Assembly: GCA_051294375.1 (NCBI GenBank)
Contig: CM119264.1
Location: 19,847,590-19,911,589, forward strand
Source: Paraspadella gotoi
Taxonomy: Eukaryota > Animalia > Chaetognatha
Reading direction: 5' to 3'
Length of the DNA stretch: 64,000 bases
The translations under genes and the position numbers were made by a program. The notes under the pieces are model-generated. The model was not told where the DNA came from. It was given only the letters and a program-made list of their open reading frames with translations, and ran no database searches. Positions 1,248-58,710 of the stretch are shown piece by piece; positions within the stretch are counted from its first letter, which is position 1, and each line of letters opens with the position of its first letter.

Positions 1248-1763
1248 AGACATTTTGAGTTAGGTCATGTTATTGCTATCATGTATATTTTGAAACAGTT
1301 TGGACTACAACTTCTGTACCATAAACATTGATATCTTTTATTTTAGAGTAGATATAAGATTCTCAATGAGCATAGGACAGTTCAATTTTTTCATGATTTT
1401 TAAAAAAGCAAAATTCAAACTTTTTTTAAAAAAGATTTAATATTTTTTTATTTAAATTAATGTTTATACTTTTATAAATAAAACAAAGCTCACATGAATG
1501 TATGAAGATAAAAAAAATGAATTGGAATGATAAAAGTATAAAAAGTAAAGAGTTTAGAGAAAATGTAAATAAGAAATGAGAAATAAAAAAAAGAAATAGA
1601 TAGAGAGAGAGAAAAATTGAAAAATATAGAGGGATAGAGAATAATAAAGATAAGAGTCGTTGTTGTTTTTATGTTTATAATTATTATTATTATTATTATT
1701 GTTATTGTTATTTAGAAAAAAGTTTTGAAGATAGATTTAACAACGATTTTTATTTCATAGTGA

Positions 1764-1805
1764 AACGGACATGTTTCGACTCACATACGAGTCTTCTTCA
1801 GCGCC
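1764..1805 (-). ncRNA. Minimal type I hammerhead ribozyme motif, intact
   Basis: ggcg CUGAAGA a gacuc-guaugu-gaguc GAAA CAUGUC cguu. Confidence 0.8.
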
Positions 1806-2426
1806 AATTCAATTTGTGAATTTGAAGAGAATTTTGTGCATAAAGAAAGAGAGAGAGGGAGAGAGACAGAGCAAAGTATCCAAAACAGAGTTTGAGAGAA
1901 AGGATATTGTTCAGTTTTTTATTATTAGGGACAGGTGAAGGTGAGGACAGAGATAGTTTGTGAAAAGAAATTGAAATGGAGAGAGAGAGAGAGAGAGACA
2001 GTGCTTGAAAATATAATACATTATGAAATGTACAATAATGTTAAAATTTTGGTAAACTTTAGTAATGAATAATATCAACAATTAGCTACAGTAATAAATT
2101 AGTGAAATGAAATAGAAGTTCAGAAATGTAAAATATTTATTGTTAGTGTTAACAATAAATATTTCACATTTCTGAACTTCTACTAAAGTTTACCAAAATT
2201 TTAATATTGTTGTACATTTCATAATGTATTGTATTTTCGAAAGCATATCCTTTCTCTCAAACTCTGTGTTGGATACTTTGCTCTTTCTCTCTCTCTCTCT
2301 CTCTCTCTCTCTCTCTCTCTCTCTCTCTCTCTCTCTCTCTCTCTCTCTCTCTCTCTCTCTCTCTCTCTCTCTCTCTCTCTCTTTTTTTTTATGCACAAAA
2401 TTCTCTTCAAATTCACAAATTGAATT

Positions 2427-2468
2427 GGCGCTGAAGAAGACTTGTATGTGAGTCGAGACATGTCCGTT
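2427..2468 (+). ncRNA. Hammerhead motif, core mutated (GAAA to GAGA)
   Basis: Inverted partner of 1764-1805. Confidence 0.65.
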
Positions 2469-3552
2469 TCACTATGAAATAATAATCGTTGTTAAATCTC
2501 TCTTCAAAACTTTGTTCTAAATCAAATCACAACAAAACGGAAAGGAAAAAACACAATATTATTGTTATATATTTTTACTTTTTAAAACAAAAAAATTAAT
2601 AGTTAAAATCATTTTTTATTTTTTCTATTAAAATCAATTTCTACCAGAATGATTTTATCCAAACTTGAGATTAAGCTCAATCAACCTCTTTTCTGGCTAC
2701 ATACAATATATCAGATAAATCCATCAATTGATTCAAGTGTAATGACAGGTTAAAGTTACAGGTAGTGGACAAAAAAATAGATGTATGGAAAGATAAAAGA
2801 TTTCATTTTTTCGGATAATTTTTTTATAATTAGGTATTTTAAGATGAACCAAGTAATTTACCAACAAGATATGAAGGGTAGACAAATAAATGGATGAAAT
2901 GGTCTATATAATTATACTATTATAGGAAAAATATAATTTTATATTTTAATTTTTTTAAATTATCTTATATTTAGCCATATCGTAACTACCAAATATTATT
3001 TTGCATTATTTTTTTTCATATATGAATAAAACCATAATGTTTCATATAATTTTTTTTGAGAGATAGAAATTTCAATCACCGATTTTTTTTTATGGTTGCA
3101 TATTCTACGCCACGCTAACTTTCATCGTGTCTTAATAACAAGTCACAGATGCTCAGTCTATAATAATGGGTATTTACAAGGTCAAAGTTGATCATATAGA
3201 GAGACATGGCAAGTAATCAAAGGTAAGTTTAGTAAGGTCACTTTTCACTGAGGTTGCGTGTTGTTGTTGTTGCTCTGCACATCCCCCCCATAGCTTTGAC
3301 CGGATGGGGAGAAAGCTTGAGTGAGTCATTATATTGCATCGTCATTTTCGTTGTCATCTTCCGGCGACTGAAGCACATTCAAGAAGAACGTTCAAAAGGC
3401 CGAGAATTGAAGAAACTTTATATCGAGCATAATCAAAGAAATTGTGAACGAATCTCTCTCTGATATTTCAAAATCATTTTAGGTTGGCACACAAAAAATA
3501 AAAGAAAAATCAAAATTTATATTAAGGTATTTGAAAAGAATTTTTTTTTAAC

Positions 3553-3800
3553 GAGATGGCCCAGTGGTTAAAGAACTAGGACTTCGACGCCGAATGGTGA
3601 GGTGGCATTCGAATCCCACTGTAGGTAACCTTTTACAATAAACTGCTATGTTTCAAAAGTGGTCCTAGAGCAATGGCTTACTGAAGGGGGAGTAGTCATA
3701 CTAGTAATCGATATCAAGACGAAAACTCGCTTTCAAATTATCATTTATACTCAAGTTACAGAGCTTTCCGTCTCAGAAATTCTAGACGGATGCTACTGTA
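3553..3800 (+). mobile_element. tRNA-derived SINE
   Basis: A box TGGCCCAGTGG, B box ATTCGAATCC; no intact cloverleaf. Confidence 0.6.
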
Positions 3801-56688: not shown

Positions 56689-56824
56689 ATATTTAGACGT
56701 GAGATAGTATGATTAAGAAACAAAAAAATGTTTTGCTTATATTGTTTGGAGAACAGTATCATTAATTACAATATATTTACAGTAATATCCTTATAAAATA
56801 ATAAATTTTCAAAATATTTTTAAG

Positions 56825-57075
56825 TTTTGAAAAAATTATTCGACATTATTGTGTAATCCTTTCGTTTTGTTGCTTTAGGAATATGCAGGAATAAGTTTGA
56901 TTTGTTTGTGACAACGATTTGTTTTATTTCAGTTTAGAAACGGCTTTGAAACATGTCCGTTTCTAAAGTGAAATAAAACAAATCGTTGTCACAAACAAAT
57001 CAAACTTATTCCTGCATATTCCTAAAGCAACAAAACGAAAGGATTACACAATAATGTCGAATAATTTTTTCAAAA
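56825..57075. repeat. Near-perfect ~118-bp-arm palindrome of a family 1 3' end including the tail
   Basis: Arms mirror around the loop ctttgaaacatgt (3' half of the hammerhead). Confidence 0.8.
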
Positions 57076-57083
57076 TTTTTATT

Positions 57084-57269
57084 TGTAAAATTAATACAAC
57101 GATTTTTATTAAGAGACTGACATGTTTCGGCTTGTTGGCTTCAAGCATTCATGCAGGCTTGAAGCCAACAAGCCGAAACATGTCCGTCTCTTAATAAAAA
57201 TTGTTGTATTAATTTCACAAATACTTTGCCTTCTCTAAAATAAAAAAAAACGAAAAGAAAGGATTATCG
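57084..57269. mobile_element. Family 1 hairpin insertion with two partial hammerheads
   Basis: 13-bp TSD caaaatttttatt (57071-57083/57270-57282), tail aacgaaaagaaagga. Confidence 0.7.
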
Positions 57270-58710
57270 CAAAATTTTTATTAAAGATTCTGATTCTTCA
57301 TAAAAATTTAGATAAAAAATATAAAATATGTTATTAAATATTTTAATGTTTTCAATATCAAAAATGGAAAAAACGGTCAAAATTATCTACTTTTTTACGC
57401 TCTGTAGTAAAAACTATTATATGATAAAAATTTTTAGTCATTTTTCGCAGCTTTACCTCAAAATATCATAAAACTTATTTTACAAAAGTTTTTTTTTCGG
57501 TGAATCCGAAACTGTTCTTTAATTTCAAAAAAATATTTAAATTTTATGATTTTATAAGGATATTACTTTAAAGAAAATTCAATTAATGATACTGTTATGC
57601 ACATTTTTTTTGAAAAGAGGCTTAATTATTTTTTATCACATATAAAAAGGCAGCAAAAAACATTGTTCCATCGATCAATGTTTTCATCACTCAACCTTAC
57701 TGTTCATGATCAACTATTCGAATTCTGATCGGCAACCTTAACTACGCCTTAATAAGCAGATATGTTTTGACTCTAATGCGAGTCTTCATCAGCGCACTGA
57801 TGAGGACTCGCATTAGAGTCAATACATGTTTGCTTAAAATAAAATTAATAAATATTTAATGAGTCTTTTTAAAAAGAAGTTAAAATAGTTTAAAAAGAGG
57901 GTTAAAATAGTTTTTAAATTCTTTTCATTGAAGCCAACAAGCCAACAAGCCGAAACATGTCCGTCTCTTAAAAAAATTGTTGTATTAATTTCACAAATAC
58001 TTTGCCTTCTCTAAAATAAAAAAAAACGAAAAGAAAGGATTATCGCAAAATTTTTATTAAAGATTCTGATTCTTCATAAAAATTTAGATAAAAAATATAA
58101 AATATGTTATTAAATATTTTAATGTTTTCAATATCAAAAATGGAAAAAACGGTCAAAATTATCTACTTTTTTACGCTCTGTAGTAAAAACTATTATATGA
58201 TAAAAATTTTTAGTCATTTTTCGCAGCTTTACCCTCAAAATATCATAAAACTTATTTTACAAAAGTTTTTTTTTTCGGTGAATCCGAAACTGTTCTTTAA
58301 TTTCAAAAAAATATTTAAATTTTATGATTTTATAAGGATATTACTTTAAAGAAAATTCAATTAATGATACTGTTATGCACATTTTTTTTTGAAAAGAGGC
58401 TTAATTATTTTTTATCACATATAAAAAGGCAGCAAAAAACATTGTTCCATCGATCAATGTTTTCATCACTCAACCTTACTGTTCATGATCAACTATTCGA
58501 ATTCTGATCGGCAACCTTAACTACGCCTTAATAAGCAGACATGTTTTGACTCTAATGCGAGTCTTCATCAGCGCACTGATGAGGACTCGCATTAGAGTCA
58601 ATACATGTTTGCTTAAAATAAAATTAATAAATATTTAATGAGTCTTTTTAAAAAGAAGTTAAAATAGTTTAAAAAGAGGGTTAAAATAGTTTTTAAATTC
58701 TTTTCATTGA
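57159..58710. repeat. Near-identical ~780-bp tandem duplication
   Basis: Junction near 57930 with ttga microhomology inside a hammerhead stem II. Confidence 0.85.
57753..57836. ncRNA. Head-to-head pair of degenerate hammerheads (duplicate at 58532-58615)
   Basis: CUGAUGA + gacuc/gaguc on both strands; GAAA decayed to AAUA (+) and AAAA (-). Confidence 0.6.

What the first reader, a model, noticed from the sequence alone, without database searches (positions are those of the whole stretch)
1712..58615. Family of hammerhead-bearing fold-back retro-insertions (Penelope-like pLTR derivatives) in the introns of a titin-like gene
Seen: about 9 distinct loci (1712, 12389, 17620, 27825, 33309, 41550, 51687, 56825/57084, 57753). 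Most share an inverted terminal segment, an unpaired ~30-nt tail ending aacgaaaa(a)gaaagga and a 10-17 bp TSD, and most carry CUGA(A/U)GA-stem II-GAAA-CAUGU(C/A). Stem II covaries (gacuc/gaguc, ggcuu/aagcc, gguuug/caaguc) while the core is constant. Known: minimal type I hammerheads with a palindromic stem III, inverted pseudo-LTRs and a short 3' tail are features of Penelope-like elements. Inference: a non-coding, ribozyme-carrying family mobilised by a PLE RT/endonuclease elsewhere in the genome, which repeat finders would probably mislabel as MITEs.
Basis: partly seen in the sequence, partly recalled or inferred. Interest (0 to 1): 0.85.

Follow-up and report, generated by a model that had tools for sequence, protein, structure and literature searches.

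The report
Fold-back stubs of Penelope retrotransposons
These short mirror-image insertions are real, and they are most likely dead-end stubs left again and again by ordinary Penelope-type jumping genes, an already described pattern rather than a new self-copying ribozyme family.

Summary
The insertions are real. Seven have an inverted arm, a forward arm, a one-sided tail (35-37 nt in 6 of 7) and an AT-rich 10-13 bp TSD; empty paralogous sites bear out three TSDs. Only 3 of 10 keep a fully paired minimal hammerhead (0.02 hits per shuffle). This anatomy is the published signature of endonuclease-bearing Penelope-like elements (PMC8557442, PMC3846280, PMC4209133, PMC11167929). The same ribozyme type occurs in 106 metagenome loci, 53 of 103 hits with an inverted partner arm, and in one locus lies 3' of a reverse-transcriptase/GIY-YIG-like ORF. 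A separate non-coding family is not supported: each insertion has its own arm lengths, copies are 68-79% alike, and other genomic copies run on upstream of the longest one. The parent ORF of this family was not found, so membership is inferred. The scan has noted this pattern 318 times in at least 35 other genomes. New members of a known kind; low interest.

The parts
1712..2558 (+). Family A fold-back insertion, two long arms, 37-nt tail; TSD 1702-1711 / 2559-2568
1764..1805 (-). Intact minimal type I hammerhead in the inverted arm (forward-arm copy at 2426-2467 has GAAA changed to GAGA)
12388..13066 (+). Longest family A insertion: 52-nt inverted arm, 591-nt forward arm, 36-nt tail (13031-13066); TSD 12377-12387 / 13067-13077; other genomic copies run on upstream of 12440
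12938..12980 (+). Intact minimal hammerhead; predicted cut after 12976
12441..12497 (+). 18 codons and a stop at the truncated 5' end; possible end of the parent ORF, unproven
   Evidence: no protein match
17620..17740 (-). Decayed family A arm with tail on the minus strand, core CUGAUUA, inside the intron between two Ig exons; faint partner remnant at 17797-17831
27825..28356 (+). Family A insertion, long inverted arm with hammerhead (27874-27917, minus, one stem I mismatch), 63-nt forward arm, 37-nt tail; TSD 27812-27824 / 28357-28369; empty site near 5910
33309..33456 (+). Short family A insertion, hammerhead 33356-33399 (minus, stem mismatches), 37-nt tail; TSD 33297-33308 / 33457-33468; duplicate at 37667; empty site near 53870
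41550..41712 (+). Short family A insertion, intact hammerhead 41597-41639 (minus), 35-nt tail; TSD 41537-41549 / 41713-41725 (one mismatch); duplicate at 37191 cut in the tail; empty site near 54980
51684..51799 (+). Family A hairpin, both arms cut 3' of the hammerhead (no ribozyme), 37-nt tail; TSD 51673-51683 / 51800-51810; collapsed paralog at 48476-48520
56839..57061 (.). Family A hairpin with the tail on both arms (104 of 105 identical), only the 3' half of the hammerhead; TSD unclear
57084..57269 (+). Family A hairpin turning inside the hammerhead core, 49-nt tail; TSD 57071-57083 / 57270-57282; cut duplicate at 57939
57753..57836 (.). Old hairpin of two hammerheads with mutated GAAA, no tail or TSD; duplicate at 58532-58615
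62346..62698 (+).
9141..62290 (+). Host gene exons: four Ig I-set domains (9141-9422, 9496-9762, 17302-17577, 17874-18137), a 1510-codon open frame (22952-27484) and repeated K/E/P-rich exons; titin/obscurin-like

Best explanation
The insertions are likely 5'-truncated, dead-end copies of several subfamilies of an ordinary endonuclease-bearing Penelope-like retrotransposon, each made as two head-to-head partial copies of the element's terminal repeat. Shown: arms, tail, TSDs, empty sites, hammerhead fold, longer copies elsewhere. Inferred from work on another element (PMC11167929): the GIY-YIG endonuclease nicks both strands of AT-rich DNA 10-13 bp apart; reverse transcriptase primes at each nick and starts inside the RNA at one of two sites 35-37 nt apart (the tail is the distance between them); both cDNAs abort early and are joined head to head; fill-in gives the TSD. 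The hammerhead rides along because it lies about 55 nt upstream of the inner start site. It is conserved in the parent elements, not for anything these stubs do, and would cut only as a dimer or with protein help.
For: Tail 35-37 nt in 6 of 7 despite 68-79% identity between copies; variable 10-13 bp TSDs, three with empty sites; arm lengths differ at every locus. Contigs of 4 of 4 runs go on upstream of 12440/12442 with a shared sequence; several contigs stop matching at the tail end 13066-13069, and many diverge exactly at the stem I edges 12939 and 12981; the 12 listed substitutions include U4, loop II and N17 and none in stem II or GAAA (table cut to the best supported rows). A 3083-nt contig of depth 389 carries a related hammerhead at its letters 35-86. 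In 96 distinct metagenome hammerheads found by core letters alone, stem II is 86% paired against 53% permuted and stem I 80% against 49%; 53 of 103 have an inverted partner, and all 18 rows with an exact TSD (8-13 bp) have a 23-39 nt one-sided tail. L102 places this hammerhead about 100 nt behind the stop of an ORF identical to the end of P0003, which has RVT_1 (E 3e-14) and a GIY-YIG-like C-terminus. Literature: PMC8557442, PMC3846280, PMC4209133, PMC11167929.
Against: No RT or endonuclease was tied to this family itself: none in 159 of 217 window frames scanned with Pfam, none by tblastn with P0003, and the 12441-12497 peptide matched nothing credible. The RT link comes from another organism and from 1 of 106 loci; 29 other ORFs near such hammerheads gave no RT, one gave a mariner transposase. 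The 3083-nt contig's sequence was not shown. About 480 nt upstream of the hammerhead is non-coding and microsatellite-rich, which a non-autonomous parent would also have. 56839 (two tails) and 57753 (none) do not fit the simple scheme.
Confidence: 0.8

Rival explanations
1. The parent is a non-autonomous, non-coding Penelope derivative (about 0.7-1 kb, retrozyme- or SINE-like) that is transcribed and copied in trans; the stubs are its truncated copies.
For: Three long copies share a 370-480 nt non-coding body; no ORF link found for this family; non-autonomous PLE derivatives are known (PMC8557442 passages; bioRxiv 10.64898/2026.07.22.740005).
Against: Other copies extend upstream of the longest one, limit unknown; no head-to-tail tandem units as in retrozymes; a 3-kb high-depth contig starts with a related hammerhead.
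Confidence: 0.14
2. The hairpins themselves are the mobile unit: a MITE-like or self-copying fold-back family.
For: Terminal inverted arms and TSDs; repeated identical hairpins occur in the window.
Against: Identical hairpins are all inside segmental duplications with shared flanks; TSD length varies; the tail is one-sided; a true TA-flanked MITE next door looks different.
Confidence: 0.04
3. The hammerhead look is chance or an assembly artefact of hairpins.
For: Rfam finds no hammerhead; covariation in 7 window copies is weak; two near-identical duplications end inside these hairpins.
Against: Descriptor hits 5 against 0.02; the sequences are in contigs of independent runs; strong pairing in 96 outside motifs.
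Confidence: 0.02

Closest known systems
Endonuclease-bearing Penelope-like element insertions with inverted 5'-truncated pLTR, one-sided 30-40 bp tail and TSD (PMC8557442 Fig. 2 legend; Adineta Pen2a with 9-bp TSD and 31-bp tail, PMC3846280)
   Same: Head-to-head arms, tail on one arm, variable 10-13 bp TSD, heavy 5' truncation, hammerhead near the 3' end.
   Different: Here almost nothing of the ORF is left; the parent ORF and clade are not identified.
Minimal type I hammerheads of metazoan PLEs (PMC4209133)
   Same: [quoted passage not shown]
   Different: Helix II is 5-7 bp here; cleavage untested.
Anolis Poseidon PAc (PMC11167929)
   Same: AT-rich targets; tail as the gap between two RT start sites downstream of the hammerhead. 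Family B has an ATG at core position 9, 26-27 nt before the predicted cut, as in PAc.
   Different: In families A and B the frames after the hammerhead close within about 13 codons in these copies; biochemical steps were shown for PAc only.
Non-LTR retrozymes (bioRxiv 10.64898/2026.07.22.740005)
   Same: Non-coding, type I hammerhead, PLE-related.
   Different: Retrozymes are head-to-tail tandem units; these are single head-to-head insertions.

Membership tests
EN+ Penelope-like element | RT plus GIY-YIG ORF in the parent element | tested here: inconclusive
   None in the window; peptide searches blank; same hammerhead type 3' of such an ORF in L102 only.
EN+ Penelope-like element | Inverted 5'-truncated copy next to the forward copy | tested here: met
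   9 of 10 insertions have two arms.
EN+ Penelope-like element | 30-40 bp one-sided tail | tested here: met
   35-37 nt in 6 of 7, 49 in one; two tails at 56839.
EN+ Penelope-like element | Variable-length TSD in AT-rich DNA | tested here: met
   10-13 bp, 75-100% AT, three empty sites.
EN+ Penelope-like element | Direct tandem pLTR-ORF-pLTR copy | not testable with these tools
   No genome held; only a 3083-nt contig of unseen sequence.
Minimal type I hammerhead | CUGAnGA / GAAA / UH core with stems I and II and palindromic stem III | tested here: met
   3 family A insertions and 1 family B copy pass; others mutated or cut.
Minimal type I hammerhead | Self-cleavage (as dimer) | not testable with these tools
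   Co-folding gave the stem III dimer as minimum-energy form for 2 of 7 motifs only; no raw RNA reads listed.
Non-LTR retrozyme | Head-to-tail tandem units each with a hammerhead | tested here: not met
   None in the window; one two-hammerhead direct arrangement among the metagenome loci (L089).
MITE / DNA transposon | Fixed-length TSD and symmetric terminal inverted repeats | tested here: not met
   TSD 10-13 bp, asymmetric ends.

The most novel reading that the evidence does not exclude
Insertion polarity follows the host gene: the tail-bearing arm lies on the gene's strand in 8 of 9 polarised insertions, so the choice of RT start site on each nicked strand would depend on transcription or replication direction at the target. 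The stubs would then be a genome-wide record of an undescribed strand asymmetry in Penelope integration.
Probability: 0.12. Interest if true: 0.5.

Novelty: new member of a known kind. Interest (0 to 1): 0.2.

Why it matters
As a family it matters little: the arrangement and the ribozyme are described, and the scan meets them often. The copies are useful as natural records of Penelope integration (constant 35-37 nt tail across diverged subfamilies, 10-13 bp stagger) and for correct repeat annotation. If the strand bias held genome-wide it would give a testable handle on how the two nicked strands are used.

Tried and rejected
Rfam: no hammerhead. Strict metagenome pattern: 0 hits. No RNA holder listed on record and no raw reads, so RNA ends and expression are untested. 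Peptide 12441-12497: word search blank; HMMER gave one 19-fold repeat protein judged spurious; no similarity to P0003; absent from the PMC8557442 supplement (five short terms). Pfam on 159 of 217 window frames: no RT or endonuclease; 58 frames, mostly beyond 50.6 kb, were not sent, but tblastn with P0003 covered the whole window. One search used a mis-registered structure of mine and is discarded; one search replaces it. Junctions at the cleavage site: 2 of 41 partner arms in metagenome loci start within 1 nt of it, no spike; two window arms do (12388, 56839), too few. Selection against sense-strand ribozymes: 1 of 3 sense and 2 of 6 antisense family A cores intact, no difference. No joints showing empty alleles; flanks are repeats, so polymorphism is open. 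Lunse et al. 2016 was not held; seen only as cited in PMC6765202.

Full report
Observation. Extra copies at 37191, 37667, 57939 and the pair 57753/58532 lie in two tandem duplications of 99.6% and 99.4% identity, and 48476 is a paralog of 51684 whose hairpin has collapsed. Seven insertions read TSD, inverted arm, forward arm, tail, TSD. TSDs are 10, 11, 13, 12, 13, 11 and 13 bp and 75-100% AT; tails are 37, 36, 37, 37, 35, 37 and 49 nt. Paralogous host repeats in the window give empty sites with one TSD copy for 27825, 33309 and 41550. Exceptions: 17620 is a decayed arm on the minus strand, 56839 has the tail on both arms, 57753 has neither tail nor TSD.

Ribozyme. A descriptor for minimal type I hammerheads finds 5 hits against 0.02 per shuffle (100 shuffles): three family A insertions (one duplicated) and one of a second family. 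Family A has CUGA(A/U)GA, one extra A, a G-C-opened stem II, GAAA, the palindrome ACAUGU and a 4-bp stem I. The core is exact in 5 of 10 insertions. In 7 independent window copies 31 of 35 stem II cells pair, barely above permutation (P 0.18; Watson-Crick only P 0.048). Outside evidence is stronger. Contigs laid on 12900-13130 pile up over the ribozyme, many diverge at its stem I edges (12939, 12981), and the 12 listed substitutions spare stem II and GAAA (the table keeps only the best supported rows). Rfam found no hammerhead. Cleavage is untested.

Link to Penelope-like elements. In those loci 53 of 103 hits with enough flank have an inverted partner arm, and all 18 rows (17 loci) with an exact TSD of 8-13 bp show a one-sided 23-39 nt tail, although 0-59 was allowed. 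In L102 the same hammerhead type follows a frame that is identical over 66 residues to the end of P0003, a 567-residue protein with RVT_1 (E 3e-14) and a C-terminus that I read as GIY-YIG from recalled motifs; Pfam gives it only a weak T5orf172 match. This ties the ribozyme type, not this family, to an RT ORF. Of 29 other long frames near such hammerheads none was an RT and one was a mariner transposase. The window has no RT or endonuclease remnant.

Family or stubs? No two independent insertions share arm lengths or junction; arms within one insertion are 29/39 to 26/26 identical while different insertions are 68-79% alike. Each fold-back was therefore likely made at insertion, from one of several subfamilies. 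The longest copy (12388-13066) is itself cut: contigs in 4 of 4 runs continue upstream of 12440/12442 with a shared sequence, median 17-168 nt. Its first 57 nt can be read as 18 codons and a stop, and depth peaks there, but no protein match was found, so coding status is open. In run X5 a 3083-nt contig of depth 389 (the other 7 listed X5 rows: 2-96) has a related hammerhead at letters 35-86, the layout of a unit-length element, but its sequence was not shown. A non-autonomous parent is not excluded.

Mechanism. PMC11167929 (parts 1-2 of 4 read) shows for an Anolis element that the protein cuts and extends both strands at AT-rich sites, starts reverse transcription at two internal RNA sites whose distance is the tail, and does not need hammerhead cleavage for insertion. 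Applied here by inference: two nicks 10-13 bp apart, one cDNA from each start site, both aborted, joined head to head. The inner start site lies about 55 nt past the predicted cut, so short arms necessarily end in or near the ribozyme. PMC3846280 (passages) offers self-priming on an antisense template instead; my data do not separate the two. I found no pile-up of junctions at the cleavage site (2 of 41).

Known precedent. PMC8557442 (passages, section 11 and a supplement search) describes the adjacent inverted 5'-truncated copy and 30-40 bp tail as typical. PMC4209133 (parts 1-2 of 4) describes minimal hammerheads with the extra nucleotide, short helix I, palindromic stem III, opposite-strand pairs 100-700 bp apart and low activity even as dimers. 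PMC6765202 and PMC8969392 (passages) and the retrozyme preprint (part 1 of 5; its supplements are closed) agree. The scan's own notes hold the pattern 318 times in at least 35 genomes; a sequence look-up found none for this family.

Host gene. Four Ig I-set exons match titin and myosin-binding protein C best, one database hit is named unc-89-like, and a 1510-codon frame and K/E/P-rich repeated exons follow to 62290. Titin- or obscurin-like is fair. Nine insertions lie between these exons; 1712 lies before the first one recognised.

Beyond the finding. A second hammerhead fold-back family (B) sits at 62346-62698 with paralogs at 45343 and 48515, apparently one old insertion copied with the gene's internal repeats. 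The tail-bearing arm is on the gene's strand in 8 of 9 polarised insertions (two-sided P 0.04, noticed after the fact; 7 of 8 and P 0.07 without family B).

Verdict. Real; likely Penelope-like stubs (0.8); new members of a known kind; interest 0.2.

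Noticed in passing
window 62346-62698, 45343-45740, 48515-48940: Second hammerhead fold-back family (B) with a different core context and candidate 12-bp TSD; intact ribozyme at 62604-62646(+). ATG at core position 9, as in Anolis PAc.
   Followed up: partly
window 62507-62600, 45496-45615: The forward arm of family B holds a GC-rich piece absent from its inverted arm that reads as a lipase-type GHSLG motif (motif recalled); Pfam Lipase only E 0.23 for one copy. 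Possibly a captured host-gene fragment.
   Followed up: partly
window 62699-63277: MITE with 28-bp terminal inverted repeats, flanked by TA, inserted in the tail of family B; another end at 63699.
   Followed up: partly
window 32989-41700 and 57162-58710: Two tandem duplications (99.6%, 99.4%; the first with 2 mismatches and 17 gap positions) each have a breakpoint inside a fold-back element; assembly error or hairpin-induced duplication.
   Followed up: partly
window 56822-57282: Two family A insertions side by side; the first has two tails and its symmetry runs about 16 bp into a palindromic flank.
   Followed up: partly
window, 9 polarised insertions: Tail-bearing arm on the host gene's strand in 8 of 9.
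   Followed up: partly
window 371-1150, 7117-7600, 15060-16070, 18166-19310, 21090-21990, 29180-30280, 52025-52335: Another abundant repeat family with palindromic ends, ~160-bp internal repeats and 18-bp tandem arrays; possibly Helitron- or DINE-like, not examined.
   Followed up: no
window 46162-46805: GC-rich 233-bp direct repeat (96%) in AT-rich intron DNA; no Pfam match for its frames.
   Followed up: no
window 12943: Some genomic copies carry U4-to-C in the hammerhead core (all 4 runs).
   Followed up: no
L015:2627-3604: Mariner-type transposase frame 396 nt past a hammerhead, likely an unrelated neighbour.
   Followed up: no
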